This document shows positions 8,397 through 61,387 of a stretch of DNA of 64,000 nucleotides, piece after piece. Source of the DNA: Escherichia phage JLBYU43; the sequence record NC_105512.1, one strand, 5' to 3'. The translations under genes and the position numbers were made by a program. The notes under the pieces were generated by a model, which saw only the letters and a list, made by a program, of their open reading frames with translations, was not told where the DNA came from and searched no databases. The first letter of the stretch is position 1, and each line of letters opens with the position of its first letter.

Positions 8397-8616
8397 CCGC
8401 GCCCGCGATGGTTAGCCTGCTAATGGTTAGGGTGTTACGTGTCGCCTTGTGTGATCGTTAGCGAGCTAACTAATTTTCAAGCCTCCTCCAATTTTGCCCT
8501 TGTTTTAGTATCCCCACCAAAATTAAACGCGTTAGAATGCGATCTAGGACGTTTTAGCGGTATATTAGAATTATTCACTGCGTAGGAATACTGTATATTT
8601 ATACAGTAGGATAAGC

Positions 8617-27668: not shown

Positions 27669-27744
27669 TGGTAGTTAGTAGTGGAGTTGAACCACTGTAG
27701 TCGCTCCGTATGAAGGAGGTGCATAACCACTCTGCCAACTAACT
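27669..27744 (-). tRNA. tRNA with anticodon CAU (Met or Ile2)
   Basis: 7-bp acceptor stem, T-arm AGTGG-TTCAACT-CCACT, encoded CCA, loop TTCATAC. Confidence 0.55.
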
Positions 27745-27750
27745 ATAATT

Positions 27751-27825
27751 TGGTACCCAATCTAGGTTACGATCCTAGGTCTGAGAGTTATCGGCTCTCT
27801 GTTCTACCATTGAACTAATCGGGCT
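27751..27825 (-). tRNA. tRNA-Ile (GAU)
   Basis: perfect D-arm and anticodon stem, encoded CCA; unusual T-loop ATCGTAA. Confidence 0.5.
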
Positions 27826-28390
27826 TTTTAATACTTTTGGGATCTTTTCCTGTTAAGGCTTTATATCTTTTTCTTAAGCCATTATCAGAATAACCAAGTT
27901 CTTTAGCTGCTCTGACCCAGGAATAGTTAGATACCCAATATTCAATTTGTTCAGCAGATACACTATTATCTTTTACTTTTGACTCGCTATAATGTTTAAG
28001 ACAATAAGTAGACTTACCCGCTATTCTTATTCCACAGACTTTGCAAAAACTTTGTTTGGGCGGAGATATTCCCCTATCAAAACAAGTTTTCTCATAATGA
28101 TCCAGTTTAGACCTCACTATCAGGTTATCTAAATCATTATTAGATATATCTGTATCATCGTGATCTACTTCTAAATCAGAGGTTAATGAGGGTAGATCTT
28201 TATATACTCTCGCTAATGCTCTGCTTAGTAGTATATTTTTAGTTCCATTTTCGACGCCGAAATATTTATACCCAGTAGTATTAGTACGTATACTAAGTAA
28301 TTTATTACTTATTTTGGAATATACTCTACCCTCTCTAGAAATTAAATAATCTGGATACTCTGGTATTTCCTTAAATTCTGTTAAGTCCAT
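27815..28390 (-). CDS. HNH homing endonuclease
   Basis: NUMOD4-like N-terminus and HNH motif (EVDHDD...N). Confidence 0.7.
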   Translation of the reverse strand: MDLTEFKEIPEYPDYLISREGRVYSKISNKLLSIRTNTTGYKYFGVENGTKNILLSRALARVYKDLPSLTSDLEVDHDDTDISNNDLDNLIVRSKLDHYEKTCFDRGISPPKQSFCKVCGIRIAGKSTYCLKHYSESKVKDNSVSAEQIEYWVSNYSWVRAAKELGYSDNGLRKRYKALTGKDPKSIKKPD

Positions 28391-28683
28391 TACATCATCT
28401 CGTCTAGGTAAGAAGTATACTGGTATTTAGCTTCACCAGTTTTAGCTACTTCGACTTCTGTTCTAGGTACTTTTCGTACCAGACCATGAATCATCTTATA
28501 GTTAAGAGACTTAGATGGTTCGTGATCTTTTGGAAAGACTTGTTTAACCGTTACTACTTTGAAGCCTTCACGAGGTGTTAATACAACAACTTGATCACCT
28601 TCTTTAATTTTCCAGGACTCAGGAAATTCATAAGTGTAGCGTTGACCACCAGTTTGGAACACGACAGAAAGATAACGTTTCAT
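28390..28683 (-). CDS. hypothetical protein
   Basis: 97-aa ORF behind an early promoter. Confidence 0.5.
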   Translation of the reverse strand: MKRYLSVVFQTGGQRYTYEFPESWKIKEGDQVVVLTPREGFKVVTVKQVFPKDHEPSKSLNYKMIHGLVRKVPRTEVEVAKTGEAKYQYTSYLDEMM

Positions 28684-28757
28684 TTGGTTTCCCTCTCATT
28701 AATTTATATAAATATTATAACAAGAAATAAGAGAGAAGGCAAATGAATTTTTAAATT

Positions 28758-28832
28758 TGGTGCTCCCACCAGGAGTCGAACCTAGTTCAGATGCTTACAA
28801 GGCAACTGCATCGCCAGCAATGCTTTAGGAGC
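28758..28832 (-). tRNA. tRNA-Thr (UGU)
   Basis: acceptor and T-arm fold, CCA encoded, loop CTTGTAA. Confidence 0.6.
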
Positions 28833-28999
28833 AATAAACCCGTCATTTCAACGGGATTTCTTTTTCAAATACAGGAGACTTATCAGACATTACTGTCATC
28901 GCCAACTGCTGAAGAAACTCGAAGGATAGTGCTAGGCGTTCGTCACCAAGCTCAATCTCTACACGTTTCTTTTGTTTGTCAACCTTTAGTTTCAGGTTA

Positions 29000-29221
29000 T
29001 CAGCCATCTTCGGATTCTAGTTGCTCGGCTACTGCTAGCCAGTCTGGTAAAAGAAACTTAGTACGAAACTCTTCATAAGGTTCTTCTGGATAAAAGCTAA
29101 AATTTGCTTTCTCATCATTTAATAAAACCGAACCGTCTTCCTGTTCATAAGCTCGGTATGTTTCACCAATAATTAAAACTCGTCTATTAGGATTTTTATT
29201 ACGAAACTCAAAAACGTCCAT
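29000..29221 (-). CDS. hypothetical protein
   Basis: 73-aa ORF. Confidence 0.45.
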   Translation of the reverse strand: MDVFEFRNKNPNRRVLIIGETYRAYEQEDGSVLLNDEKANFSFYPEEPYEEFRTKFLLPDWLAVAEQLESEDG

Positions 29222-29236
29222 AACGTTTCCTTAAAT

Positions 29237-29311
29237 TGGTGCGGGATACGAGAGTCGAACTCGTGTCTACTGGTTGGAAGCCAGTTATTCTAGCCACTGA
29301 ACTAATCACGC
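29237..29311 (-). tRNA. tRNA-Gly (UCC)
   Basis: T-arm ACGAG-TTCGACT-CTCGT, CCA encoded, loop CTTCCAA. Confidence 0.6.
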
Positions 29312-29318
29312 ATTCGTT

Positions 29319-29394
29319 TGGCTGGAGAAGGAGGAATCGAACCTACCATTAACGGAGTCAAAGGCCGCTGTGCTAACCGTTACACTACTCTCCA
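29319..29394 (-). tRNA. tRNA-Gln (UUG)
   Basis: U1-A72 acceptor with discriminator G as in Gln tRNAs; loop CTTTGAC. Confidence 0.55.
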
Positions 29395-29400
29395 ATTGTT

Positions 29401-29476
29401 TGGCTGGAGTGCCTGGGATCGAACCAGGAACCTTCGGAGTCAGAGGCCGACGATCTGCCAATTGATCTACACTCCA
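29401..29476 (-). tRNA. tRNA-Gln (CUG)
   Basis: perfect acceptor TGGAGTG/CACTCCA, discriminator G, loop CTCTGAC. Confidence 0.55.
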
Positions 29477-29484
29477 ATAATTCT

Positions 29485-29685
29485 TCACTCTACAGGAACC
29501 GTGGCTATTGGTTCTGGTTCTTCTAGACGTTTGCCTTCATGATCTACACGAATAACACCACAACCTTCACAGATTACAACAGCACCGTAGCCTTCTTTAA
29601 CTTCGGCTTCTGTAATCAGACCAGAAAGATCACCAGTATCTCTACCCCACATATCAATGGAGCATTGTTTGCAGAAATCAGCCAT
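29485..29685 (-). CDS. small zinc-ribbon protein
   Basis: 66 aa with CxxC...CxxC. Confidence 0.45.
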   Translation of the reverse strand: MADFCKQCSIDMWGRDTGDLSGLITEAEVKEGYGAVVICEGCGVIRVDHEGKRLEEPEPIATVPVE

Positions 29686-29710
29686 ATTTTATTTCCTATT
29701 TAAGTTAACT

Positions 29711-29787
29711 TGGGGTGGCTAGTGGAATTCGAATCCACATAGGCCTGATTCACAATCAGGATCATTAACCAATTATGATATAGCCAC
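29711..29787 (-). tRNA. tRNA-His (GUG)
   Basis: extra 5' G (G-1), discriminator C, loop TTGTGAA, CCA encoded. Confidence 0.7.
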
Positions 29788-30255
29788 AATTGAAAACTCG
29801 CAGTGTTAGCGAAACCATCCTCAAATAGCATTTTCTAGAATACTAATCAAGTTATCTCCTATTGCACGCAGCTCAAGACGAGTACGAATTTTCAATTGTG
29901 GCGGCTCTCCGAAACTCATCACACTAACAACTAGTTGATTACACCTGGATTCTCGCCCAGGAAATTCTCTAGAAAGGCGCACCGTTACACTTTGAGCCAT
30001 TGAATGGGATGGTCTCTCATCCCTACTAACTACTTGATCCTTACGATCCGTCGGTTAGCACGAGCAGCGACCCTTCATATATTGTATAGTGCTCAGAAGG
30101 TCATTAGAAGCACTTATCAAGAAGCAGAAGGACTTGAACCTTCACGAGATAGACCATTTATCTCAGCCTCGTTTTCGGGTATCTTATGAGGAGTGGATGT
30201 TCCCCTTACGCCCTTTAGGAAGCCCCGTCTACCGATTCCGGCATACTTCAAGATT

Positions 30256-30350
30256 TGGAGGTAGGTAAGGGGATCGAACCCTTACACCGTATCACTACGA
30301 TCAACCGATTTCAAGTCGGAGTCCAGCGCCAGCCATTGGATTGACCTACC
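30256..30350 (-). tRNA. tRNA-Ser (UGA), long variable arm
   Basis: perfect acceptor GGTAGGT/ACCTACC, CCA encoded, loop CTTGAAA, 95 nt. Confidence 0.55.
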
Positions 30351-30362
30351 GTATAAATTGTT

Positions 30363-30456
30363 TGGCGGAAAAGATGGGAGTTGAACCCATAAGGCGGTAT
30401 TGCTACCACTCAACCGATTTCCAATCGGGTTTAGTCACCAGTCTATTTGCTTTTCC
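30363..30456 (-). tRNA. tRNA-Ser (GGA), long variable arm
   Basis: perfect acceptor GGAAAAG/CTTTTCC, CCA encoded, loop TTGGAAA. Confidence 0.5.
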
Positions 30457-31027
30457 GTTGTTCTGTTAATACTTTTGGGCTTAATCCGGTTAGTTTAGTA
30501 TATCGTCTACGTAAAGTGGACTCTGATACTTCTAGATCTTTAGCTGCCTTAACCCACCCCATTAATAATACCTTTTCAGTTATGTCTTCTAAGGACAATT
30601 CTGGTTTTATTAACTTTCCTGTAGGTTTTGGCTTACAATTTGTACATGTTACTGATCTCTGAAGCATTAGATTTCCACATAAGGGGCAAGGTACTCTACT
30701 ATCAGACCATCCATTATCTTTATTAGTTTTCTTCTGATGTTCTATTTTTGATAAAACTTGAAGATTATCTTTAGATAGATTCAGCCTATCTCTATCCTTG
30801 TGATCTACTTCTAATTCAGGGTCAAATAGATTATATAAGTCCCCAAATACATGAGAAATAATTCGGTGTATAAGTACCGAAGTTTGCTTACCATTTATCT
30901 GTAATTTTACAGCAGGGTATCCATCAACTATATATCTTGATAAAATTTTATTAGTAAATGTAGATAACACATCCCCTGTTTCATTTACTAAATACCCTGG
31001 TGCATCTTTTATTGGTACAAACTGCAT
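30443..31027 (-). CDS. HNH homing endonuclease
   Basis: NUMOD4-like N-terminus, HNH motif EVDHKDRDRLN, Cys-rich zinc ribbon. Confidence 0.7.
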   Translation of the reverse strand: MQFVPIKDAPGYLVNETGDVLSTFTNKILSRYIVDGYPAVKLQINGKQTSVLIHRIISHVFGDLYNLFDPELEVDHKDRDRLNLSKDNLQVLSKIEHQKKTNKDNGWSDSRVPCPLCGNLMLQRSVTCTNCKPKPTGKLIKPELSLEDITEKVLLMGWVKAAKDLEVSESTLRRRYTKLTGLSPKVLTEQRKSK

Positions 31028-31043
31028 ACATTACCCTATAAGT

Positions 31044-31128
31044 TGGTGGGGCTAGGGAGACTCGAACTCCCACGCATTTAAGCTACGGAATCTAAGGCCG
31101 TATTGTCTACCAGTTCCAGCATAGCCCC
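31044..31128 (-). tRNA. tRNA-Leu (UAG), long variable arm
   Basis: perfect acceptor GGGGCTA/TAGCCCC, CCA encoded, loop CTTAGAT. Confidence 0.55.
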
Positions 31129-31133
31129 AAATT

Positions 31134-31207
31134 TGGTGGAGAAAGAGGGAGTTGAACCCTCGTCTTCTGCGTGCAAAGCAGATGTTCTACCATTAAACTA
31201 TATCCCC
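31134..31207 (-). tRNA. tRNA-Ala (UGC)
   Basis: G3-U70 wobble (Ala identity element), loop TTTGCAC, CCA encoded. Confidence 0.6.
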
Positions 31208-31467
31208 AAATTCTTTAGTTTACTAAGGCTATTAGCTCGGTGTGCGTATTACCCTCAGACATTAGCCAGTAGAGGATAACCGCTCTTCACAAACCCGATA
31301 CACTATTCAGTTGCCGCTGAATCTAGTGGACTAATCTAGAACTTCTCCCGAGTCGTAGGGATTGTGCTTTTTGGCAGCCAGTCCTAGGTCGAGCTAATAC
31401 CTTAGTGAACTTTGATGAGGATTTCTCCTCATCAATTTATATAAATATTATAACAAGAAATTAAACA

Positions 31468-31827
31468 TTAAGCAAGTACATTTTTGCAGATTTCTTGTAT
31501 TTCCTTAACGTCACTAACGAAAAGGTAATCAGAGCTTCCAGAGTGCATACTCTGCATAACCACACCACCATCCGGTGCATCTTCTTTCAAAGTAATACCT
31601 AACCAGAACTTGGCAAAACTAGGTGTTACCTCACCTTGACTTGCCTTGAACACATCGCCTTCTGTGATCTCTTGACCAGTGGAGAGTCCCATGTATGGTA
31701 CGTTCAGATCAATATCTTTGTAGAACTCAGCTAGATCTTGCTCGAAATCCCAACCTTTAGAGATAGCGAACTCCATTGTTACATGACCGAAATAGCCTTG
31801 AACCTTGCTTGATAATTGCATTTGCAA
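31468..31827 (-). CDS. hypothetical protein
   Basis: 119-aa ORF. Confidence 0.5.
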   Translation of the reverse strand: MQMQLSSKVQGYFGHVTMEFAISKGWDFEQDLAEFYKDIDLNVPYMGLSTGQEITEGDVFKASQGEVTPSFAKFWLGITLKEDAPDGGVVMQSMHSGSSDYLFVSDVKEIQEICKNVLA

Positions 31828-31846
31828 TTCCTTATTTTGAGTTAAT

Positions 31847-31920
31847 TGGTACTCGGTGATAGAATCGAACTATCGCAACCGCCGTGTAAAGACGGGGTTC
31901 TCCCATTAAACTAACCGAGC
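31847..31920 (-). tRNA. tRNA-Val (UAC)
   Basis: T-arm GATAG-TTCGATT-CTATC, loop TTTACAC, CCA encoded. Confidence 0.55.
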
Positions 31921-31924
31921 AATT

Positions 31925-32002
31925 TGGTGGATTGCCTGGGATTCGAACCCAGAACTGACGGATTAAAGGTCCGCTACTCTTATCCAGTTGAGCTAGCAAT
32001 CC
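31925..32002 (-). tRNA. tRNA-Lys (UUU)
   Basis: perfect acceptor GGATTGC/GCAATCC, loop CCTTTAA (C at position 33), CCA encoded. Confidence 0.5.
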
Positions 32003-32466
32003 AATTTTTCTACTAATAATTTAAAAGCATCTAGTACAGGTACTTCAAACCATTCTCCAGATACTATATAATCTTTAAGAAGATTATGTAATTCTTTCTC
32101 TGTACGTCTTTTATCCGACGAAAATCTGAAATGGTATAGCTTGTAGTCTCTATTAGGTGAATAAGTTTGATAACTTGCTAACCTCTCATTCACATCTATA
32201 GTCATACCTATTTTATACATGCCTGGCCATGCTGGATTACCAATTACATATACAAAACCTTCCGTTATAGGTATTTTATGCTCCCTTTTATACTTTAAGA
32301 GATTTAAGGCTGCCATTCGATAACAGAATCTAAACTCTGAAGTTTTTAACTTACCTTCTTTACCTGAAATTTCGTTATATTTGCTCATATAAGCTCTTAT
32401 GAGCTTATCATCTATAATGAAGTTATCAGGAAGGTTTAAGGCAGATAAAACTTTATTAATTAGCAT
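31993..32466 (-). CDS. T5orf172-domain protein (GIY-YIG-like)
   Basis: motif VYVIGNPAWPGMYKIGMT...ERL...YQTYSP. Confidence 0.55.
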   Translation of the reverse strand: MLINKVLSALNLPDNFIIDDKLIRAYMSKYNEISGKEGKLKTSEFRFCYRMAALNLLKYKREHKIPITEGFVYVIGNPAWPGMYKIGMTIDVNERLASYQTYSPNRDYKLYHFRFSSDKRRTEKELHNLLKDYIVSGEWFEVPVLDAFKLLVEKLDC

Positions 32467-32641
32467 AGACTTCCTTAATAGAATAAACTTTTAAGTAAGG
32501 GTGATTAATACCAAATTCCGCCATCACTTCGTTTTCATCTTTACCGTAATGGGCTAGTGGATACTTCTTACGATCTTTGCTAGAACGCAGATCACTTACT
32601 TTTAAACGAAATAATTTCATTTCGAAATCCTTCTATTAAAT

Positions 32642-32719
32642 TGGAAGCGGGTGTAGGAATCGAACCTACCTCTTTCTAGCTTATGAGACTAGCGATCTCT
32701 ACCAGAGATCTAACCCGCA
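32642..32719 (-). tRNA. tRNA-Met (CAU)
   Basis: loop CTCATAA, T-arm GTAGG-TTCGATT-CCTAC, CCA encoded; 1-72 pair mismatched. Confidence 0.5.
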
Positions 32720-32725
32720 ATTGTT

Positions 32726-32803
32726 TGGTCTCCGTGGGAGGATTTGAACCCCCGACCCTACCGCCCCAAACGGAACGCTCTGGCCAAACTGAGCTACACG
32801 GAG
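32726..32803 (-). tRNA. tRNA-Pro (UGG)
   Basis: perfect acceptor CTCCGTG/CACGGAG, loop TTTGGGG, CCA encoded. Confidence 0.6.
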
Positions 32804-33119
32804 AATATTCTTTGTTAACTCACTTTATAAGATATATTATACAGAGAATTAAGTGAAATAGCAAATGAATTTTTAATAAATTTACTTATTGCGTAGGCCA
32901 CCTGGAGGGTTCAAGCCCCACGGCTGACAAAGAAGTTTGCGAGACTTCTCTTAAATGCCAGAATAGACCCGCCGATCTATCGGAACCTACATAATAAGTA
33001 AACTTTCGTTTACCTACACCTACCTGGTCGGGAGGATTTTCAGCGACTAGAACCGGCCGGAAACTCATCGCCTTGTTTACCCTGTAGTCCCACTATAAGT
33101 GACGCGACCTACAAAGATT

Positions 33120-33193
33120 TGGTGCGGTCGGAGGGAATCGAACCCTCAACTTCTGGTTGGCAACCAAAAATTATACCTTTTAACTACGAACGC
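33120..33193 (-). tRNA. tRNA-Gly (GCC)
   Basis: T-arm GAGGG-TTCGATT-CCCTC, loop TTGCCAA, CCA encoded. Confidence 0.5.
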
Positions 33194-33406
33194 ATAATGA
33201 GTCAATCTAGGTAGGACTTGAACCTACTATCACTTGTGCGGATTTACGAGAACCATTCTTTCACTCGAATCGAACGAGCTTCTACCCTCGGCAAGCTGGT
33301 GTCCCCTCTCCACCACGCTAGAATGATAATTAATGCCTGCTCCTTTGAATCAAGAAGTCCACCCCGGACTTTGGGTCTTTGCAGTACATCACGCTGCTCT
33401 GATGTT

Positions 33407-33483
33407 TGGTACACCCACTAGGACTTGAACCTAGAACCCTCCGCTTAAGAGGCGGTAGCTCTAACCAATTGAGCTATGGATGT
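33407..33483 (-). tRNA. tRNA-Lys (CUU)
   Basis: acceptor ACATCCA/TGGGTGT, loop CTCTTAA, CCA encoded. Confidence 0.5.
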
Positions 33484-33489
33484 ATAATT

Positions 33490-33542
33490 TGGCGGTACTA
33501 AGGGTAATCGAAACCCTACCTCTCCCGTGACAGGGGAGTACC
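33490..33542 (-). tRNA. compact tRNA-like element without D-arm (anticodon loop GUC, Asp-like)
   Basis: 53 nt: acceptor-like stem, hairpin CTCCC-CTGTCAC-GGGAG, T-arm AGGGT-TTCGATT-ACCCT, CCA encoded; no room for a D-arm. Confidence 0.3.
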
Positions 33543-33574
33543 ATTACCAAGCCAGCCCCGATCGCATAATTTAT

Positions 33575-33760
33575 TTACTCAGCTTTGAGTTTTTCGATAG
33601 CTTCCTCAACCTCTTTTAGAGCTTCACGACGCTCTACTTGACCTTGAAGTTCTTCAAGAAGTTCAGCTTTCAGAGCCTTAATAATATTACCACGAACCTT
33701 AATATTATTAATCATATTATCACGATCAGCTTCTAGTCGAGCAATTGCACGAGTTGTCAT
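33575..33760 (-). CDS. small coiled-coil protein
   Basis: 61-aa charged ORF. Confidence 0.35.
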   Translation of the reverse strand: MTTRAIARLEADRDNMINNIKVRGNIIKALKAELLEELQGQVERREALKEVEEAIEKLKAE

Positions 33761-33787
33761 ATCTATTTCCTCAGTTGTTAGTGAAAT

Positions 33788-33873
33788 TGGCGGGCCGTGT
33801 AGGAGTTGAACCTACTTTATCCTTGCGGATACGGATTAACAGTCCGGCGCTTAAACCGTTCAGCCAACGACCC
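33788..33873 (-). tRNA. tRNA with anticodon GUU (Asn-type loop) and long variable arm
   Basis: 86 nt; acceptor GGGTCGT/ACGGCCC, loop CTGTTAA, variable hairpin ATCC-GCAA-GGAT, CCA encoded. Confidence 0.5.
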
Positions 33874-34025
33874 TAAATTTATATTGCTGACTAGGATTTT
33901 CACCTAGACGGAGTTAGCACCGTAGCGTGTAGCGGCATACCTCTCCAAACCGTGCCTCATCTTTCAATTACTGAGGCAGTGTTCCTACGCGTGCCTGAAC
34001 TGTTTTAACAATTCTTTCAGCAAAT

Positions 34026-34101
34026 TGGACGACCGCATGAGATTCGAACTCACATAAAAAGGATTTGCAATCCTTCGCCTAAGCCATTCAGCCAACAGTC
34101 G
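34026..34101 (-). tRNA. tRNA-Cys (GCA)
   Basis: loop TTGCAAA on a perfect AAGGA/TCCTT stem, discriminator U, CCA encoded. Confidence 0.6.
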
Positions 34102-34282
34102 ATTTATCTTGTTTTTCGAGATCTTCAAATTCTAGATTTATAGAATGTCCTATGGACCTAGCATAATAGCTATCTCCAGCATCAGTATCTCTTTCAATTT
34201 GGTACAACCTGTACGCAACGATCGTACCTCTTCTCCTTTTCAGGGAGATACTAATCCTTCTCAGTTAAAGTTGCATATTATC

Positions 34283-34353
34283 TGGCAGGGGTAAAGGTAT
34301 TCGAAACCTTTTCATGGGTTTTGGAGGCCCACTAGCAACCTATGCGTACCCCA
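34283..34353 (-). tRNA. tRNA-Trp (CCA)
   Basis: 3' end CCCCTGCCA as in E. coli tRNA-Trp, loop CTCCAAA. Confidence 0.55.
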
Positions 34354-34362
34354 ATTATTAAT

Positions 34363-34437
34363 TGGCACACCCACGGAGAATTGAACTCCGATTCTCAGAT
34401 TGAAATCCTGATGTCCTAACCATTAGACGATAGGTGC
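34363..34437 (-). tRNA. tRNA-Glu (UUC)
   Basis: Glu-type D-arm GTCTAATGGTTAGGAC, loop ATTTCAA, CCA encoded. Confidence 0.55.
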
Positions 34438-34445
34438 ATTAATTT

Positions 34446-34526
34446 TGGTGGGGGATGGAGGACTCGAACCTCCGCGTGGTATACCCGGTCTACAGCCAGG
34501 CGCCGTCGCCACTGAGCCAATCCCCC
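34446..34526 (-). tRNA. tRNA, probable anticodon GUA (Tyr)
   Basis: perfect acceptor GGGGGAT/ATCCCCC and T-arm, CCA encoded; anticodon arm fold ambiguous. Confidence 0.45.
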
Positions 34527-34632
34527 ATATTTGAATGAAAAGTAAGTCGGTTAAACTCAAAGTGGAATATTTCAGGAAATCCTGACTTTACCCCTAAAAG
34601 CAACTCGCTTAATTACTTCTCATTCAGATATG

Positions 34633-34661
34633 TTTCCAAAGTAGATAACTATTATATCAAG
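34633..34661 (-). promoter_or_regulatory. sigma70 promoter upstream of the tRNA cluster (TTGCTC-17-TATAAT)
   Basis: consensus -10 and 17-bp spacer on the minus strand; a 13-bp-stem hairpin lies immediately upstream at 34662-34701; ~110-nt leader before tRNA-Tyr. Confidence 0.5.
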
Positions 34662-34715
34662 TTTTATGGCACTGAGCAAGTCAGATTTTAAAGAACTTGC
34701 TCAGTGCTATATCAG

Positions 34716-35009
34716 TTAATCAAATGAAGGAGTGACTTTCAAAGTGAATGGAAGTTCGAATACCTCTTCACCTTCATCAGTAACAGTGACTACTCGACCC
34801 TCTAGATTATTCATGCTGATTTCAACATCAGCCGTAGCATCAGGAGCCATACCAGCCTCAATACATTGAGCTTTGATCTCTGGAAGAAGTTCTACATTGT
34901 AGAAATAAAGCCACTCGATCTCACCTTCCCAACCACCCCAGGATTTACATACTGAGCTTTCAATACCAGTTGCTGTAACACGTTTTGACATTCTGATTCC
35001 TCTCATCAA
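34716..35009 (-). CDS. hypothetical protein
   Basis: 97-aa ORF. Confidence 0.5.
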   Translation of the reverse strand: MMRGIRMSKRVTATGIESSVCKSWGGWEGEIEWLYFYNVELLPEIKAQCIEAGMAPDATADVEISMNNLEGRVVTVTDEGEEVFELPFTLKVTPSFD

Positions 35010-35080
35010 TTTATATAACTATTATATCAGAAATTTAAGGCAAAAGGCAAGTACATTTTTAAAAATTCTGTTTGGAGGAG

Positions 35081-35287
35081 TTAAAGACCGGATTCATCAG
35101 CCAGATCTAGACCAATAAGGGTGATTGCCATGATTGCAGCAGCCTGTTCTTTTTCACTCACATCTTTAGCAGACGCGATAATCTTTTCAAATTGTGATTT
35201 AAAATCTGCTACTTCAGCTTCTAAACCAGCTTCAGCAATAATGCCTTTCACCATAATACGCTGCGTCATAATTTCAGGATTTGCCAT
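35081..35287 (-). CDS. hypothetical protein
   Basis: 68-aa ORF. Confidence 0.4.
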   Translation of the reverse strand: MANPEIMTQRIMVKGIIAEAGLEAEVADFKSQFEKIIASAKDVSEKEQAAAIMAITLIGLDLADESGL

Positions 35288-35462
35288 TTGTTTTCTCCAG
35301 TTTCATTTTTAGTATTTTGCAAACAAAGTCAATATCTTCATCCGTGCCTAGATCTCTATCTTCAAGGGTTGCCTTGAAATTTTTTGTTAGTTCCATAAGA
35401 ATAACTTCCCTGGAACGACGTGTTGGCGGAGGTGGATGTCTATACATCTTAATTCCTTAATT

Positions 35463-35537
35463 TGGTGGGTCGGAGGAGAATCTAACTCCTACTCGTTAGC
35501 TTATGAGGCCACCGCTTTAACTTTAAGCTACCGACCC
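35463..35537 (-). tRNA. tRNA with anticodon CAU (Met/fMet/Ile2)
   Basis: perfect acceptor GGGTCGG/CCGACCC, loop CTCATAA, CCA encoded; anticodon stem weak. Confidence 0.5.
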
Positions 35538-35543
35538 TATGTT

Positions 35544-35632
35544 TGGAGGAAGAAGTGGGAATCGAACCCACAAGGCTATATTTCAAACTGACAGATTAGC
35601 AATCTGCTGCAATACCGTTATGCTATTCTTCC
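35544..35632 (-). tRNA. tRNA-Ser (GCU), long variable arm
   Basis: perfect acceptor GGAAGAA/TTCTTCC, loop TTGCTAA, CCA encoded. Confidence 0.55.
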
Positions 35633-35653
35633 GAATTTATAAGATATATTATA

Positions 35654-36172
35654 TTAGAAATTTAGCTTCATAGCAAGAAAATTTTTCAAGTTTTCGGTAG
35701 ACATCTCATCCACATCTACAGGAGAAACAAATCCATTTAATTGTTTAGCAAATTTTTCACCTGCAGGATCATTATCCCCAACAGCTACCAATTTAAAAGG
35801 TAGTAATTTCAATTGCTTTAACAACGCTTTTCCAGGGGAAGAACCCAACATTGCTAGGGCTGGATAACCAGCATTATGTAATGCAACTGCCTTAAATACA
35901 GATTCAGCAATCAATACTACTTTTTCATCTCCATTGAGAGTTTCTAGTCCCCATACACACTGGGTAGTAGAATAAGTAAAATATTTAGCTTCAAAGGGAC
36001 ACTTACCATGACCTTTTGGAGCAGAAGGATTATAAGTTTGATAGCCCCTCAACATCCCAGAGAAATCATATAACGGGACTGTTAGCCATCCTTCCGGACT
36101 TAACCAGCAATGATATTTTTCTGTATCAAATCCCCTAGATAGAAGGTGCTGTGTTAGCTCATCAACACTCAT
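35654..36172 (-). CDS. Toprim-domain protein (primase-like)
   Basis: conserved Glu (LIAES) and DxD (VAVGDNDPAG) typical of DnaG-type Toprim. Confidence 0.45.
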   Translation of the reverse strand: MSVDELTQHLLSRGFDTEKYHCWLSPEGWLTVPLYDFSGMLRGYQTYNPSAPKGHGKCPFEAKYFTYSTTQCVWGLETLNGDEKVVLIAESVFKAVALHNAGYPALAMLGSSPGKALLKQLKLLPFKLVAVGDNDPAGEKFAKQLNGFVSPVDVDEMSTENLKNFLAMKLNF

Positions 36173-36210
36173 ATTTGATCTCCTAGTTAGTTTTATAAAT
36201 ACATTATATA

Positions 36211-36242
36211 GAAAAGCCCGCGCTCTCGGAGGAAACGCGGGC
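36211..36242 (-). terminator. rho-independent terminator
   Basis: AGCCCGCG/CGCGGGCT stem followed by a U-tract on the minus strand. Confidence 0.5.
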
Positions 36243-36267
36243 TTGTTTCGAAGATTACGTGTAACTA

Positions 36268-37284
36268 TTACTTATTACGCATATCCATAATCATCTGGCC
36301 ATCATAACCAGTACCTACAACAGTCTGAGGAACGCCACCCTGATATTTTTCAGCGCGTTTCATATCAACTTCCAGCTGCTTCCAACGAATCATTTCAGGA
36401 GTAATGGTACGTTGCAGAGCGGCGTTAGCTTCAGCTTCTTTCTTAGCTGCGTACAGTTTAGCATCTGCGTCACGTTCGTTAGCTACTGCCATATTTTCAC
36501 GAGCAGAACGATCAGCTTCAGCTTGCTTAACTTTCTGCTGTGCTTCTTGTTCAACACGAGCTAGTTCAGCTTTTGCAGCGTTAACTTGTTCTTCACGAAC
36601 TTTTGTGTTTTGTACCTGTTCCATGATTACCGGTGGCAGAGTAATATCCTGAAGGAATACTTGCTTAACGGTGTAACCATAAGGACGCGCGTACTCTTCT
36701 ACTTCTTGCTGAATAGCGGTTTGCAGTTGAGCCTGAATCTTAGCGTCGAACAGATCTTGTGCTTTTGGTACAGACTTACCAAACTCACGAATCGTAGACA
36801 GCATCTTCTCTTCAACGTACTTGTTCAGAGCTTGATCCTGAGTACCTGCGTTAATACGGTTAATCGGTGCCTTAGAACCATCAAACTGCAACATAACAGT
36901 CAAGTCAACAGTGGATTTAAACTTATCCTGGCTAGGAACCTGAAGTTTATCTAATTTTACAGCAATATCTTTTGTACTAAAAGTATCGAAAGATGCAAAC
37001 GGGTTTACAAGATGGAAACCAGGCAATACTGGATTAGGATCTACTTTACCCAGAAATGTTTGGGTTTTAACCGTACCATCAGAAACAATAGTATATGAAT
37101 TAAAAGCTAGAATCAAGCCTGCTAAACCAACTACAGCACCAATACCCCAACGTTTAATAGTATATGAATTAAAAGCTAGAATCAAGCCTGCTAAACCAAC
37201 TACAGCACCAATACCCCAACGTTTAATAGTACGAATTACTTTCTGCTCAGAAGTCAGTTCTTTCATATTTTTAGTATTAAACAT
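36268..37284 (-). CDS. SPFH/band-7 (prohibitin, HflC-like) membrane protein
   Basis: N-terminal TM anchor, SPFH core, C-terminal coiled coil; contains an exact 69-bp tandem duplication. Confidence 0.7.
   Translation of the reverse strand: MFNTKNMKELTSEQKVIRTIKRWGIGAVVGLAGLILAFNSYTIKRWGIGAVVGLAGLILAFNSYTIVSDGTVKTQTFLGKVDPNPVLPGFHLVNPFASFDTFSTKDIAVKLDKLQVPSQDKFKSTVDLTVMLQFDGSKAPINRINAGTQDQALNKYVEEKMLSTIREFGKSVPKAQDLFDAKIQAQLQTAIQQEVEEYARPYGYTVKQVFLQDITLPPVIMEQVQNTKVREEQVNAAKAELARVEQEAQQKVKQAEADRSARENMAVANERDADAKLYAAKKEAEANAALQRTITPEMIRWKQLEVDMKRAEKYQGGVPQTVVGTGYDGQMIMDMRNK
37087..37231. repeat. 69-bp perfect tandem duplication (2.1 copies)
   Basis: 37088-37156 is identical to 37157-37225; in frame, duplicating the TM segment of the SPFH protein. 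Confidence 0.85.
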
Positions 37285-37318
37285 ATGTTTCCTTTGTTTT
37301 AGTTACAGTTAATAAAAT

Positions 37319-37393
37319 TGGCCGAGGTGACAGGATTCGAACCTGCATAAAGGAATTTAGAAGACTCCTGCCTATCCCTTAGACTACACCCCG
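37319..37393 (-). tRNA. tRNA-Arg (UCU)
   Basis: T-arm GCAGG-TTCGAAT-CCTGT, loop CTTCTAA, CCA encoded. Confidence 0.55.
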
Positions 37394-37995: not shown

Positions 37996-38478
37996 CTAAC
38001 CAAAGTTAGTAAATTCTTTATGTAAGGATTCTCTTAATATCTTAGAGGCCTCGAAAGCCTCTTCCGCAGTTTTAAACCCTCTTTTACTGTAATTTTTTCC
38101 TTCATGTCTTACTTGGTATCTCCAGGAAGAGCCTTCCCAACTTACTCCTTTGTACCCAGAAGTATTATTGCATTGTTGGTTTCTATTCGCATTGTTTTGC
38201 GATCTAGAGGCGTCCCTTAGATTATTTTTCCTATTATTTCTAGGATTAGTATCCTTATGATCTACTTCTTCAGGCCTATATCCATAGTACATAATAAACA
38301 ATAAGACATGCAGTTGATAGGTGTCGCCCTGAAATCCCACATCTGGGTGTGATTTCTTATTATTGGCACAACACTCTTTCAAACCTTTCTTTGTTTTCCT
38401 ATATAGTACCCCATTATCAGGATCAGCTACAAAATATTTTTCAAGTATTTCTTTAGTAGGGTATTCTTTCCTTTTCAT
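37996..38478 (-). CDS. HNH endonuclease with AP2-like domain
   Basis: HNH motif (EVDHKDTNPRNN) plus C-terminal YKGVSWEGSSWRYQV. Confidence 0.65.
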   Translation of the reverse strand: MKRKEYPTKEILEKYFVADPDNGVLYRKTKKGLKECCANNKKSHPDVGFQGDTYQLHVLLFIMYYGYRPEEVDHKDTNPRNNRKNNLRDASRSQNNANRNQQCNNTSGYKGVSWEGSSWRYQVRHEGKNYSKRGFKTAEEAFEASKILRESLHKEFTNFG

Positions 38479-38521: not shown

Positions 38522-38965
38522 TTAATTAAATTCGCCAGCAACCTGAGCAGCAATGCCACCGTCGTAACGACCAGGAAACTCTTCCTTAATCGCTTTCATC
38601 AGCATACCTTTTGTAATCCCAGGATTCAACTTAACTAATTCTGCAAAGTATTTGCGAATCTCAGAATCAGATAACTGAGGCGGCAGATACTGCTGTAACC
38701 ATTTGTTCAGTATATATTCATACTGAGCAGACTGCAAGCTATAATTATCAAGGTCTTGACCGTGAAGTTTAGCTTTCGTCTGATTAATGCTTTTCAGTTG
38801 AGCTTTTAGATAAGATACAAACTGTTCAGAAGTAATGAAGTCTTTATCAACACGCTGAAGATCTCCGATTATGGTCTGGTAGCTTTTAGCTACTTCTTTA
38901 TCAGAACCATTAAACTTGGATTCCTGCAAAGCCCTACGCAAAACATCTAGAATATTCTCTTCCAT
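38522..38965 (-). CDS. GatB/YqeY-domain protein
   Basis: 147 aa; C-terminal pattern (GITKGMLMKAIKEEFPGRYDG) resembles the YqeY family. Confidence 0.5.
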   Translation of the reverse strand: MEENILDVLRRALQESKFNGSDKEVAKSYQTIIGDLQRVDKDFITSEQFVSYLKAQLKSINQTKAKLHGQDLDNYSLQSAQYEYILNKWLQQYLPPQLSDSEIRKYFAELVKLNPGITKGMLMKAIKEEFPGRYDGGIAAQVAGEFN

Positions 38966-51404: not shown

Positions 51405-51694
51405 TCCTATAGTGTACTTCGCTTCTAACAGAGGATCAACAAAAAGATCTTGTTTATCAACTTACAAATATATTATACCAATATATGTGGGAGAAAGCAA
51501 CTACAATTTTAAATAAGCATATGATATTGCATTTAAATAAAAAATTTGCTTGCTTATAGAGGCAGAAATATGATACTAGATAATCATTTATTTATACGCA
51601 AAATATTACAGTATTAGATGACGAAAGAAAATTTTAATTGACATAGTGGATAATGTTTAGTATAATAGGTGTAAAAATTCTGTGGAGAAGGGGA

Positions 51695-52558
51695 ATGCCG
51701 AAAAAATTAACTCAAGAAGAAGTAGATAAATGCCTAGCCGAACGTGGTTTTACTATGGTGGATAAGCCTTACCAAAATTCTAGGTATAGGCATACGTATC
51801 AGTGTGAATATGGTCATCAATGGACATCTAAATTTGATGCTATTAGGAATGGAAAGACCAATTGTCCTACTTGTTCTATTAATAGCCGTAAACTAGATAT
51901 CGATAAAATTAATACTGTATTACAGGGTAGGGGTATTACATTGTTGGAGGGCTATAAAAATAGTGCCGATATAAATACTAAATTTAGGTGTGTTTGTGGT
52001 CATGAGTGGGCTACTACACTTAATAGTATAATTAATAGAGGTAGTGGCTGCCCCTCTTGTGCTATTAATAAACAAAAACTTAGTATTAATACTATAAACG
52101 ATCGTCTTACTGCTAGGAATATTAGAATAGTAGGTGAATATAGTAATGCGAATATTAAGACCACCTTTCTCTGTGGTGCAGGGCATCAGTGGGAAGCTAC
52201 TCCAGGATCCGTGTTAGGAGGAAATGGTTGTCCTTACTGTAAGTATAGGGATTTAGAAAATACTAAGGTATATATTATGCATAGCCCTTCACATGGTGTT
52301 AAAATAGGAAGGTCTAACAATCCAGAGCGCAGACTTTTACATATTAAATCTAGTAGTCACCTTACTGATCTGGAAGTAATTAAAGTATTTGAAATTGGAG
52401 AATATAGTGATGCTGTTCAAATCGAAAAATTAGCTCATAATTACTTTAAAGAACAGAATTGCCAATACAAAGATTTTGATGGTGCTACGGAATTCTTCAA
52501 TATTGAGCCAGAAGTAGCTATAAAATTTATCGAGGAAATAATCAATGACAGAAAATGA
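51695..52558 (+). CDS. T5orf172-domain protein with three zinc-ribbon repeats
   Basis: three ~47-aa repeats CxxGHxW...GxGCPxC followed by a T5orf172/GIY-YIG-like C-terminus; start at ATG 51695 with a GGAGAAGGGG RBS. Confidence 0.55.
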   Translation: MPKKLTQEEVDKCLAERGFTMVDKPYQNSRYRHTYQCEYGHQWTSKFDAIRNGKTNCPTCSINSRKLDIDKINTVLQGRGITLLEGYKNSADINTKFRCVCGHEWATTLNSIINRGSGCPSCAINKQKLSINTINDRLTARNIRIVGEYSNANIKTTFLCGAGHQWEATPGSVLGGNGCPYCKYRDLENTKVYIMHSPSHGVKIGRSNNPERRLLHIKSSSHLTDLEVIKVFEIGEYSDAVQIEKLAHNYFKEQNCQYKDFDGATEFFNIEPEVAIKFIEEIINDRK

Positions 52559-55029: not shown

Positions 55030-55243
55030 AAATGTTAGTCTTATTGACCTGAGTAAACTCAATGTAGAGTTTCAGGGGGTTTTAATGAAGCACTGGGAAA
55101 CTGGCTATAAGGATGGTGTTGAATCCTGTGCTACTATGCTAGAATTTATTGCTAATACCTTAGTGGAGAAAGGCAATAAAGAATTAGCTGAGCTGTTAGA
55201 CAGTATTGGGCAAAACTTCAGAGAGCAGGTGAAAAATGCGTAG
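54998..55243 (+). CDS. hypothetical protein
   Basis: 81-aa ORF. Confidence 0.45.
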   Translation: MAFSSQKLPSENVSLIDLSKLNVEFQGVLMKHWETGYKDGVESCATMLEFIANTLVEKGNKELAELLDSIGQNFREQVKNA

Positions 55244-61170: not shown

Positions 61171-61387
61171 AAAATGGGAAACAAGGAAGTTTCCAGTAAA
61201 AGAGCGTAAAGTTCCTGTTTACGACACTTCGGAAAAGCTATGTAGGGTGGTACCACACAGATTAGCTGGCATCCCTAACATATCCGAGTGGTTACTTAAA
61301 CAACGGAAAACTAACGTGTCTCTTCGCATCGGCTTTGAGTTAGATAAAGTCTATGCTGAACTTGCTTCTTTGCTCAAGGAACAATAA
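61154..61387 (+). CDS. hypothetical protein
   Basis: 77-aa ORF overlapping the end of the ATPase gene. Confidence 0.4.
   Translation: MTVKNKKWETRKFPVKERKVPVYDTSEKLCRVVPHRLAGIPNISEWLLKQRKTNVSLRIGFELDKVYAELASLLKEQ

What the first reader, a model, noticed from the sequence alone, without database searches (positions are those of the whole stretch)
35654..36172. Small Toprim-domain protein embedded in the tRNA island
The 172-aa protein carries the Toprim catalytic Glu and DxD motif (GDNDPAG) but no zinc-binding or helicase domain. It could be a stand-alone primase-like nuclease or topoisomerase-like fragment; its function in a tRNA gene region is unclear.
Basis: partly seen in the sequence, partly recalled or inferred. 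Interest (0 to 1): 0.4.

Follow-up and report, generated by a model that had tools for sequence, protein, structure and literature searches.

The report
Stand-alone primase core among phage tRNAs
A conserved 172-residue protein of a T5-like phage is the bare catalytic core of a DnaG-type primase (no zinc finger, no helicase partner); its relatives in other phages repeatedly sit beside, or are fused to, tRNA-repair enzymes, which hints at a job on RNA rather than in DNA replication.

Summary
ORF 35654-36172 (-) encodes a 172-aa protein inside a 23-tRNA island of a T5-like phage. It is the homologue of T5.076, which some records annotate as 'DNA primase'. It passes the Pfam Toprim_2 cutoff and matches PHROG 849 'DNA primase' (4.9e-62). 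Its confident AlphaFold model matches whole DnaG and T7-gp4 primase catalytic cores. Profile-profile alignment (99.2%) places it on the RNA-polymerase domain of canonical phage primases, without their zinc ribbon and linker. It is under strong purifying selection (dN/dS 0.055). It is not a topoisomerase fragment. T5-like phages carry a complete primase and helicase about 30 kb away, so this copy is accessory. The family is phage-restricted and mostly stand-alone (165-200 aa). In many independent lineages it is embedded in tRNA arrays. It also lies next to or fused with CCA-adding enzymes, next to RtcB, or fused to a PNK-type phosphatase, and it sometimes neighbours NAD-salvage genes. My best reading (0.4) is a primase-derived enzyme acting on tRNA/RNA ends. 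The main rival (0.3) is an auxiliary DNA primase subunit that borrows a zinc finger in trans. No biochemistry exists for the family. I rate it a new variant of a known kind, of moderate interest.

The parts
35654..36172 (-). CDS, 172 aa; T5.076 homologue; stand-alone DnaG/T7-gp4-type primase RNA-polymerase domain without a zinc-binding domain
   Evidence: dN/dS 0.055
35933..36172 (-). N-terminal primase-type subdomain (residues ~1-80). Family-invariant H9, L10, R13 ('HLxxRG', aligned with the 'RG' motif of canonical primases), G43, Y47, P49 and Y64 (K63-Y64 'KY')
   Evidence: alignment A2; hhalign to canonical primases; Foldseek whole-domain matches to 1dde and 1nui
35663..35926 (-). Toprim subdomain (residues ~83-170). 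Motif IV is E90-S-V-F-K94, with Lys where E. coli DnaG has D269. Motif V is D133-N-D135-P-A-G. The distal acidic motif is D153-V-D155-E156
   Evidence: (alignment to E. coli DnaG core, E 5e-7)
36180..36184 (-). AGGAG ribosome-binding site, 7 nt before the ATG
   Evidence: read from the sequence
36214..36244 (-). Intrinsic-terminator-like hairpin (12 pairs, 7 GC) plus T-run between the SPFH gene and this gene
35648..35676 (-). Sigma-70-like promoter match (TTGCTA-17-TATAAT, 10/12) overlapping the 3' end of the CDS and facing tRNA-Ser/tRNA-Met. A consensus match only
35463..35632 (-). tRNA-Ser(GCT) and tRNA-Met(CAT) immediately downstream, both with genomically encoded CCA
   Evidence: tRNA-Ser lies 24-25 nt downstream in all 19 T5-like loci
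36268..37393 (-). Upstream neighbours: SPFH/Band-7 membrane protein gene (36268-37284) and tRNA-Arg(TCT) (37319-37393)

Best explanation
The gene encodes a stand-alone catalytic core (RNA-polymerase domain, i.e. N-terminal subdomain plus Toprim) of a DnaG/T7-gp4-type primase. It has lost the zinc-binding domain and any helicase-docking part. It belongs to a phage-restricted family of such 'mini-primases'. It is not the replicative primase of this phage, because T5-like phages carry a complete ZBD-DnaG_N-Toprim primase next to a DnaB-like helicase elsewhere. I infer that it uses the Toprim two-metal centre on RNA ends, most likely tRNA 3' ends, as part of phage tRNA maturation or repair. Within that reading I favour NTP-dependent nucleotidyl transfer over hydrolytic trimming, roughly 60:40. 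The transfer would extend or fill in a recessed RNA 3' end before CCA addition or ligation. The trimming alternative would be RNase-M5-like. Shown here: fold, motifs, conservation, absence of a ZBD, coexistence with a full primase, and the genomic and fusion associations. Inferred: the substrate (RNA/tRNA) and the chemistry.
For: (1) The fold and homology are those of a primase RPD. The AF2 model has pLDDT 91.7. Foldseek top hits are E. coli DnaG core 1dde (TMq 0.74), Mtb, S. aureus and Aquifex DnaG, T7 gp4 1nui, Twinkle and T4 gp61. hhalign to canonical ZBD phage primases gives 99.2% probability, E 3.9e-19, and covers only their RPD. (2) Catalytic residues are invariant or nearly so across 23 divergent members: E90, D135, D153, G138, plus N-subdomain H9, L10, R13 and Y64. 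dN/dS is 0.055. (3) It is accessory. The T5-like relative DT571/2 has a DnaB-like helicase D6 and a 296-aa primase with Zn_ribbon_DnaG, DNAG_N and Toprim. L046 and L114 also carry canonical ZBD primases nearby. Privateer has a T3/T7-type primase-helicase according to its annotation. (4) T7 biochemistry says a ZBD-less RPD lacks template-directed primer synthesis and template binding on its own (PMC2910064). (5) There are recurrent links to tRNA and RNA repair in unrelated lineages. A CCA-adding enzyme is adjacent, often as an overlapping same-strand pair, in L041, L046, L117, L132, L156/157, L178, L201 and Vibrio phage F99. It is fused in P0096, a real uninterrupted ORF on L198. RtcB lies immediately downstream in Agricanvirus jumbo phages. 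A PNK-type HAD phosphatase is fused in P0124. The gene is embedded in or within 2.5 kb of same-strand tRNA arrays in T5-likes, L036, L037/42, L047, L057, L090, L116, L119 and L182. (6) In every locus group where a CCA gene lay within the ±8 kb held, at least one member has it within 3 genes of the family gene. (7) None of the fusion proteins I scanned has a helicase or a DnaG zinc ribbon. (8) Toprim enzymes that act on RNA exist: RNase M5 (6z2b/6tpq) and OLD acting on tRNA (PMC12445682).
Against: About 60% of the sampled family lineages show no tRNA or RNA-repair neighbour. Some members of the same Lys-motif branch as the T5 protein sit in replication or nucleotide-metabolism modules: Kagunavirus after an SNF2 helicase near PolA, Privateer between primase-helicase and PolA, L045 near RNR, and L049 near gp32. 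tRNA islands and CCA/NAD genes are accessory-gene hot spots, so co-location could reflect shared 'island' residence rather than shared function. I could not build a matched control set. The P0096 fusion is a singleton. Several other 'fusions' are probably merged neighbouring genes. No DnaG-type RPD is known to act on RNA ends, and no experiment exists for this family. T5 tRNA genes already encode CCA, and T5 has no CCA enzyme of its own in this window.
Confidence: 0.4

Rival explanations
1. It is an auxiliary DNA primase catalytic subunit. It would make RNA primers on phage DNA, borrowing a zinc-binding domain in trans (from the T5 primase or a separate zinc-ribbon protein) or priming without sequence specificity, for example at special origins, for restart, or for repair.
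For: All primase catalytic-core motifs and the primase-specific N-subdomain are retained. Separate T7 ZBD and RPD can complement each other in a mixture (PMC2910064). Jumbo phages tend to pair DnaG-like primases with a stand-alone primase-type zinc ribbon (PMC7824862). One family member is fused to a DUF3268 zinc finger (P0078). In Kagunavirus and Privateer the gene lies in the replication module. The primase nature of the Kagunavirus 'helicase-primase' N-terminus could not be verified, so the small protein might be the real primase there. Databases already name it 'DNA primase'.
Against: There is no helicase-binding or ZBD element. A zinc-ribbon ORF beside the family gene is rare (about 1-2 of 26 groups) and absent beside the window gene. 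The family coexists with complete primases in T5-likes, L046 and L114. None of the fusion proteins scanned has a helicase fusion. The second acidic residue of motif IV (DnaG D269) is Lys in this branch. The recurrent CCA-enzyme, RtcB, PNK and tRNA-array contexts are unexplained by DNA priming.
Confidence: 0.3
2. It is a counter-defence or nucleotide-metabolism accessory enzyme linked to NAD/ADP-ribose chemistry rather than to tRNA. For example, it might act on NAD-derived or ADP-ribosylated nucleic-acid ends, or make or degrade small nucleotide products.
For: NAMPT and bifunctional NMNAT-NUDIX genes lie within 3 genes in three groups (L037/42, L047 group, L066) and within 8-21 genes in several other loci. 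The family is fused to Arr-type ADP-ribosyltransferase domains in P0041, P0084 and L105. An NMNAT-like cytidylyltransferase unit precedes it in P0073. A macro-domain gene lies nearby in Dickeya phage JA11.
Against: NAD-salvage genes often share accessory islands with tRNA arrays (L037/42 have both), so this signal is not independent. P0073 is probably two merged genes. No such genes flank the window copy. No known DnaG-type domain has such chemistry.
Confidence: 0.12
3. It is a non-catalytic remnant, decoy or selfish passenger of the homing-endonuclease-rich tRNA region, with no enzymatic role.
For: The tRNA island is rich in HNH homing endonucleases. One orthologue (L022) has an extra stop, and VSe12 matches in two pieces. 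The gene is not universal in T5-like phages.
Against: dN/dS is 0.055 and length and position are conserved in 19 of 20 genomes. The metal-binding Glu/Asp and N-subdomain residues are invariant across members only 36-45% identical. The family has 360 clusters at 50% identity with E<=1e-10.
Confidence: 0.05

Closest known systems
T7 gene 4 primase RNA-polymerase domain, and the natural ZBD-less 56-kDa gp4 isoform
   Same: It has the same two-subdomain fold (1nui, 6n9u; TMq 0.60-0.66) and a similar size (~170-200 aa). It has the same acidic Toprim centre. Like the 56-kDa form, it lacks the zinc-binding domain.
   Different: gp4 is covalently joined to a helicase, and its ZBD-less form arises from an internal start of the same gene. 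Here the domain is a separate gene, far from the helicase, in a tRNA island. Sequence identity is only ~16%.
Bacterial DnaG catalytic core (E. coli 1dde/1eqn/3b39; S. aureus 4e2k)
   Same: It is the best structural match (TMq 0.74). The family profile aligns to DnaG motifs IV-V at E 5e-7. The equivalents are E265=E90, D309/D311=D133/D135, and 'RG' and 'KY' motifs in the N-subdomain.
   Different: It has no CHC2 zinc ribbon and no C-terminal DnaB-binding domain. The core is about half the length. DnaG D269 is Lys94 here, and G266 is Ser91.
Canonical T5-type phage primase (T5.120-like, 296 aa) with DnaB-like helicase D6
   Same: It is encoded by the same kind of genome. The RPDs are homologous (hhalign 99.2%; BLASTP 23% identity).
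   Different: The canonical enzyme has Zn_ribbon_DnaG, DNAG_N and Toprim and sits in the replication module. The window protein lacks the first ~128 alignment columns and sits among tRNAs.
Jumbo-phage DnaG-like primases accompanied by a stand-alone primase zinc ribbon (Iyer et al. 2021, PMC7824862)
   Same: These are ZBD-less DnaG-type proteins in phages. Agricanvirus and Salmondvirus jumbo phages carry ~45%-identical homologues of the window protein.
   Different: That paper treats them as replication primases. It does not list a DnaG-like component among RNA-repair genes. The Agricanvirus copy sits directly upstream of RtcB.
RNase M5 (Toprim ribonuclease that matures 5S rRNA)
   Same: It is a small (~180 aa) stand-alone Toprim enzyme acting on a stable RNA. 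The Toprim halves superpose (6z2b, rmsd ~2 A).
   Different: Only the Toprim half matches (TMq ~0.45, E 6e-3). The window protein's other half is the primase N-subdomain, not the RNase M5 C-terminal domain.
Mycoplasma MG010 'DNA primase-like protein' (TIGR00646)
   Same: It is a short ZBD-less DnaG paralogue that coexists with a full DnaG. There is a weak profile match (E 1.4e-4).
   Different: The score of 21.5 bits is far below the 260-bit cutoff, so the window protein is not a member. MG010 is cellular rather than phage-encoded, and its function is likewise unknown.

Membership tests
Toprim domain superfamily | Profile match to a Toprim model above the curated threshold | tested here: met
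   Pfam Toprim_2 scores 25.5 bits against a cutoff of 22.1. Toprim (PF01751) and Toprim_4 fall below their cutoffs.
Toprim domain superfamily | Conserved Glu after strand 1 and a DxD motif | tested here: met
   E90 and D135 are invariant in 23 family members. D133 is present here but replaced in a sub-branch.
DnaG/T7-gp4-type primase | RNA-polymerase domain fold (N-terminal subdomain plus Toprim) | tested here: met
   Foldseek matches 1dde (TMq 0.74) and 1nui (0.60). hhalign to canonical primases gives 99.2%.
DnaG/T7-gp4-type primase | N-terminal zinc-binding domain (CHC2 or Cys4 ribbon) for template recognition | tested here: not met
   There is no Zn-ribbon Pfam hit, only 3 Cys and no CxxC. 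The alignment starts after the ZBD and linker of canonical primases.
DnaG/T7-gp4-type primase | Physical link to the replicative helicase (fused helicase or C-terminal helicase-binding domain) | tested here: not met
   The protein ends ~17 residues after the last Toprim acidic motif. There is no helicase domain. The helicase gene is ~30 kb away in relatives.
DnaG/T7-gp4-type primase | Full set of acidic metal ligands (DnaG E265, D269, D309, D311, D345/D347) | tested here: inconclusive
   E90, D133 and D135 align to E265, D309 and D311. D153/D155 align with the distal acidic motif of canonical phage primases. The D269 position is Lys94 in this branch and Asp in the other branch.
DnaG/T7-gp4-type primase | Template-directed oligoribonucleotide synthesis on ssDNA | not testable with these tools
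   This needs a biochemical assay. T7 data predict that a ZBD-less RPD alone is inactive (PMC2910064).
PHROG 849 ('DNA primase') | Profile match | tested here: met
   E 4.9e-62, covering profile positions 146-337 of 435. The fusion proteins match the same segment.
RNase M5 | Toprim domain plus the RNase M5-specific C-terminal domain; whole-protein similarity | tested here: not met
   Only the Toprim half superposes (TMq 0.44-0.47). There is no sequence-level PDB or NCBIfam match.
OLD/AriB/GajA-type defence Toprim nucleases | ATPase partner or domain and an OLD-type Toprim (DUF4435) signature | tested here: not met
   PADLOC gives only a Toprim-segment hit to a DRT 'RTasDnaG-like' model (E 6.9e-7). 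There is no OLD, Gabija or PARIS model and no ATPase.
Type IA/II topoisomerase | Toprim joined to topoisomerase catalytic (Tyr) domains; structural similarity | tested here: not met
   No topoisomerase appears among the 50 listed PDB matches. Pfam PF01751 is below its cutoff.
Phage RNA-repair module (proposed, not an established family for this protein) | Conserved operon or fusion linkage with RNA-repair enzymes (CCA-adding enzyme, RtcB, PNK phosphatase) | tested here: inconclusive
   The linkage is present in about 10-12 independent lineages. It is absent in most others and in the window itself, apart from the tRNA genes. No matched control could be built.

The most novel reading that the evidence does not exclude
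A primase catalytic core has been repurposed in phages as an RNA-repair polymerase. It would extend recessed or truncated tRNA 3' ends, using the 5' strand of the acceptor stem as template, so that the CCA-adding enzyme (often encoded next door or fused) or RtcB can finish the repair. This would be a previously unrecognised enzyme class in phage counter-defence against tRNA-targeting nucleases, mirroring what Thg1-like proteins do at 5' ends.
Probability: 0.12. Interest if true: 0.8.

Novelty: new variant of a known kind. Interest (0 to 1): 0.5.

Why it matters
Hundreds of T5-like and other phage genomes label this gene 'DNA primase' or 'hypothetical'. This analysis shows it is a zinc-finger-less primase core that coexists with a complete primase. 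The current label is therefore probably misleading about its role. Phage tRNA islands and RNA-repair genes are now understood as counter-measures to tRNA-cleaving bacterial defences. If the family acts on tRNA or RNA ends, it would add a primase-derived enzyme to the phage RNA-repair toolkit. It would also give a concrete function to a conserved gene of the T5 tRNA island. If it is instead a trans-acting primase subunit, it would be a natural example of split primase architecture. Simple assays can test either outcome.

Tried and rejected
(1) Topoisomerase fragment: rejected, because the structural neighbours are all primases.
(2) RNase M5 or OLD/AriB membership: rejected, because only the generic Toprim half matches.
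(3) Split primase with a zinc-ribbon ORF next door: a regex scan for CxxC...CxxC ORFs found none adjacent in the window and almost none beside family genes. The one near L046 is a complete canonical primase.
(4) Direct sequence search of the PDB with the single protein gave only noise. The family profile was needed.
(5) The first indexed homologue search gave only 6 hits. The profile search and the exhaustive search were needed.
(6) My first neighbour-profile iteration was contaminated by the family gene itself and was redone without iteration.
(7) The apparent homology between family C-terminal extensions and the CCA-enzyme C-terminus turned out to be a shared lineage-specific ~40-aa tag, not a CCA-specific domain. 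Two-tag 'fusions' (P0073, P0087, P0119) are therefore probably merged neighbouring genes and are not counted as fusions.
(8) The ligase-like 'KLDGQN' motif in P0073 could not be confirmed by PDB, Pfam or PHROG searches.
(9) The fusions P0096 and P0116 were not found in IMG/VR. P0096 was verified on its Logan contig instead.
(11) Literature searches for T5.076, for Toprim in phage RNA repair, and for T5 tRNA-region genes found no functional data. One search failed on a term shorter than three characters.
(12) The primase identity of the Kagunavirus 755-aa protein's N-terminus could not be verified.

Full report
WHAT IS THERE

The window is part of a T5-like phage (Demerecviridae). A 2.4-kb stretch around the finding matches hundreds of Tequintavirus and Epseptimavirus genomes at 89-93% identity. 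The window carries 23 tRNA genes on the minus strand between 27.7 and 37.4 kb.

It has an AGGAG ribosome-binding site 7 nt before the ATG. A strong terminator-like hairpin (36214-36244) separates it from the upstream SPFH/Band-7 gene. tRNA-Ser begins 21 nt after its stop codon. That spacing is kept (24-25 nt) in all 19 T5-like loci fetched.

In the annotated relative DT571/2 the orthologue is 'hypothetical protein T5.076 (DNA primase-like protein)', and RefSeq calls it 'DNA primase'.

IS IT A REAL GENE

Yes. All 20 T5-type copies are 172 codons long, and one (L022) shows an extra stop. Median dN/dS is 0.055 over 170 pairs with dS>0.05.

An exhaustive profile search of 1.84 billion representative proteins finds 848 relatives at E<=1e-3 and 360 at E<=1e-10. 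Most are stand-alone proteins of 165-200 aa.

A scan of one genome per prokaryotic species found only six full-length copies. All six are on MAG contigs that look like binned phage DNA. The family is therefore essentially phage-restricted.

WHAT KIND OF PROTEIN

The protein is more than a Toprim domain, as four results show:

- PHROG 849 'DNA primase' matches at 4.9e-62, but only over profile positions 146-337 of 435.
- An AlphaFold2 model built on a 23-sequence alignment is confident (pLDDT 91.7, pTM 0.88).
- The model's best PDB neighbours are whole primase catalytic cores. They are E. coli DnaG 1dde (TMq 0.74), DnaG from M. tuberculosis, S. aureus, Aquifex and Pseudomonas, T7 gp4 (1nui, 6n9u), Twinkle and T4 gp61. 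RNase M5 matches only through the Toprim half (TMq ~0.45), and no topoisomerase is listed.
- Profile-profile alignment with canonical ZBD-containing phage primases, including the T5-type one, gives 99.2% probability (E 3.9e-19). It places the family on template columns 129-305 of 318. That is the entire RNA-polymerase domain, minus the zinc ribbon and linker.

The family profile also aligns with E. coli DnaG motifs IV-V at E 5e-7. The equivalences are E90=E265 and D133/D135=D309/D311.

Invariant residues in the 23-member alignment are H9, L10, R13 ('HLxxRG'), G39, G43, Y47, P49, Y64, G75, E90, F93, D135, G138 and D153.

One deviation stands out. The second acidic residue of motif IV (DnaG D269) is Lys94 here ('ESVFKA'). 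This Lys branch also contains the Kagunavirus, Privateer and Agricanvirus homologues and the P0096 fusion. Most jumbo-phage and metagenomic members keep Asp ('EGIFDA').

The protein has three Cys residues and no CxxC motif. There is no zinc-binding domain and no helicase or helicase-binding domain.

IT IS AN ACCESSORY COPY

T5-like phages have a standard replisome about 30 kb from this gene, outside the window. It includes a DnaB-like helicase (D6) followed by a 296-aa primase with Zn_ribbon_DnaG, DNAG_N and Toprim domains. That primase shares only ~23% identity with the window protein.

Other family-bearing phages also carry a separate main primase:

- L046: a canonical ZBD primase two genes away.
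- L114: a canonical ZBD primase five genes away.
- Privateer: a T3/T7-type primase-helicase, according to its annotation.
- Kagunavirus: a 755-aa 'helicase-primase', again by annotation. Pfam confirms only its AAA_25 ATPase domain. Its N-terminus has no zinc ribbon and no detectable similarity to DnaG-type primases, so this case is unverified.

Established T7 biochemistry is relevant here. The natural ZBD-less 56-kDa gp4 'lacks template-directed primer synthesis'. The isolated RPD does not bind template detectably. A mixture of separate ZBD and RPD can nevertheless synthesise (PMC2910064).

GENOMIC AND FUSION CONTEXT OF THE FAMILY

I fetched 160 family loci from IMG/VR, which fall into 45 groups at 70% identity. 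I also examined annotated phages and MAG contigs. The recurrent associations are these.

(i) Same-strand tRNA arrays within 2.5 kb, often on both sides. This holds for T5-likes, L036, L037/38/42/43, L047, L057, L090, L116, L119 and L182. L065 and L126 lie about 3.2 kb from an array. The arrays occur in both the Lys and the Asp branch and without shared flanking genes.

(ii) CCA-adding tRNA nucleotidyltransferase.
- Directly adjacent: L041 (2 nt upstream, same strand), L046 (convergent, 22 nt away), L157 (-1), L178 (overlapping upstream), L201 (overlapping upstream) and Vibrio phage F99 (overlapping upstream).
- Within 3 genes: L117 and L132.
- Fused: P0096, a full bacterial-type CCA/HD enzyme followed by the family domain. 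It is a real uninterrupted ORF on contig L198.
- Probably fused or merged: P0116.

In every locus group where a CCA gene lay within the ±8 kb held, at least one member has it within three genes of the family gene.

(iii) RtcB RNA ligase lies immediately downstream in Agricanvirus jumbo phages (Pfam RtcB 3.9e-126).

(iv) A PNK-type HAD phosphatase is fused in P0124 (phrog_415, 6.6e-14), and a related one lies at +5 in L065. An Rnl-type RNA ligase occurs among the ±3 neighbours once.

(v) NAD salvage: NAMPT and NMNAT-NUDIX lie within three genes in three groups. Arr-type ADP-ribosyltransferase is fused in P0041, P0084 and L105.

(vi) Replication or nucleotide-metabolism neighbours: Kagunavirus (SNF2 helicase, PolA), Privateer, L045 (RNR), L049 (gp32) and Dickeya JA11.

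None of the fusion proteins I scanned carries a helicase or a DnaG-type zinc ribbon. One carries a DUF3268 zinc finger.

Roughly a third of the sampled lineages show a tRNA or RNA-repair link. The rest show no informative neighbours.

The survey of jumbo-phage RNA-repair genes by Iyer et al. lists tRNAs, RtcB, Rnl1/2, PNK-HAD, 2H, cRec, RlaP, CCA-adding enzyme, Thg1, PTH2 and KptA. It lists no DnaG-like component. The same paper treats DnaG-like proteins as replication primases that are often accompanied by a stand-alone zinc ribbon (PMC7824862).

INTERPRETATION

Shown: the protein is a conserved, catalytically equipped, ZBD-less DnaG-type RNA-polymerase domain. It is accessory to a complete primase. 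It belongs to a phage-only family with non-random links to tRNA arrays and tRNA-repair enzymes.

Inferred: it acts on RNA ends, probably tRNA, rather than priming DNA (confidence 0.4). Within that reading I lean towards nucleotidyl transfer, because the primase N-subdomain and its conserved Arg and Lys-Tyr motifs are retained. An RNase-M5-like trimming activity remains possible. The Asp-to-Lys change in motif IV shows that the active site is not a standard DnaG one.

The main rival (0.3) is an auxiliary DNA primase subunit that works with a ZBD in trans. The T7 complementation data, the jumbo-phage zinc-ribbon observation, the P0078 zinc-finger fusion and the replication-module contexts keep this rival alive.

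An NAD/ADP-ribose-linked role (0.12) and a non-catalytic remnant (0.05) are less likely.

CAVEATS

- tRNA islands are accessory-gene and homing-endonuclease hot spots.
- I could not build a matched control set.
- The clean CCA fusion is a singleton.
- Several long 'fusions' are probably merged neighbouring genes that each end in a shared C-terminal tag.
- T5 tRNA genes already encode CCA.
- No experimental data on T5.076 or the family were found.

VERDICT

The gene is already in the databases, mostly as 'DNA primase' or 'hypothetical'. What is new is the recognition that it is a stand-alone primase core with recurrent tRNA-repair associations. I rate it a new variant of a known kind, with interest 0.5.

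Noticed in passing
window 37087-37231 (within the SPFH/Band-7 gene 36268-37284, minus strand): A perfect 69-bp tandem duplication (2.1 copies, 100% match) duplicates a 23-residue hydrophobic segment (IKRWGIGAVVGLAGLILAFNSYT x2). The protein is 338 aa here against 315 aa in DT571/2. It may be a recent duplication or an assembly artefact.
   Followed up: partly
L095 ~5990-6511 (Erwinia phage Special G gp48/gp49) and L096 ~4001-4496 (Dickeya phage JA11): The family gene is interrupted at the same point in two jumbo-phage genera. The N-terminal frame ends in TGA ('...NRILN*' / '...DDRIFN*'), and the +1 frame continues '...VFLTESVFKAC...', including the catalytic Glu, with no start codon. About 65 records show the same two-piece match. 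This is a candidate programmed +1 frameshift. It also explains why PHROGs has separate half-length families (phrog_14043 and phrog_17952).
   Followed up: partly
L041 7995-8747 and 6395-7993; L046 7974-8708 and 8730-10310; L109 8007-8747; proteins P0050, P0073, P0087, P0106, P0111, P0119, P0124: A ~40-residue C-terminal tag, 'KNP(E/D)TGNDILVKTALxYxxxHPAxxxA', ends many unrelated enzymes of one jumbo-phage lineage: family proteins, CCA-adding enzymes, PNK phosphatase, Mom-like, ParB_N and cytidylyltransferase units. It occurs twice in some long predicted proteins, which suggests merged genes. Its function is unknown; it may be a targeting or assembly peptide.
   Followed up: partly
window 27669-37393: All 23 tRNA genes encode their 3' CCA, and each CCA is followed by an A. 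Several are paired with spacers of only 4-8 nt. The island therefore needs 5'/3' trimming but not CCA addition for maturation.
   Followed up: partly
window 38522-38965 (minus): A 147-aa protein in the tRNA island has a weak YqeY/GatB-type hit (PF09424, 24.9 bits, below the cutoff of 27). Relatives annotate it as 'tRNA amidotransferase'. It may be a second tRNA-related protein in the island.
   Followed up: no
window 37996-38478 and 61387-61959: These are HNH_3 homing-endonuclease genes. Further Cys-cluster ORFs at 27815-28390 and 30443-31027 lie inside the tRNA island and are possible endonucleases. This is consistent with the island being a hot spot for mobile genes.
   Followed up: no
window 29485-29685 (minus): A 66-aa ORF with a four-Cys pattern (CKQC...CEGC) lies in the tRNA island and has no Pfam match. 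It is 6 kb from the finding and is the only small zinc-ribbon-like ORF in the region.
   Followed up: partly
L066 5102-7883; L067 8588-10976; L037 5641-7074; L042 5652-7022: NAD-salvage gene pairs (NAMPT plus bifunctional NMNAT-NUDIX) lie within 1-3 genes of family members in three lineages, sometimes inside tRNA arrays.
   Followed up: partly
L022 (T5-like IMG/VR contig), match 8001-8516; Salmonella phage VSe12 (H52): One T5-type orthologue shows an extra stop codon, and another matches in two pieces. These may be occasional inactivation or sequencing errors.
   Followed up: no
window 51653-52558, 55236-56012 and 58381-61170: Other accessory or early genes were seen while mapping the window: a T5orf172/DUF4379 (treble-clef zinc finger) protein, a Sir2-family protein, and the 929-aa D1-type helicase (annotated as replication origin binding in DT571/2). 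The window ends before the D6 helicase and primase module.
   Followed up: no
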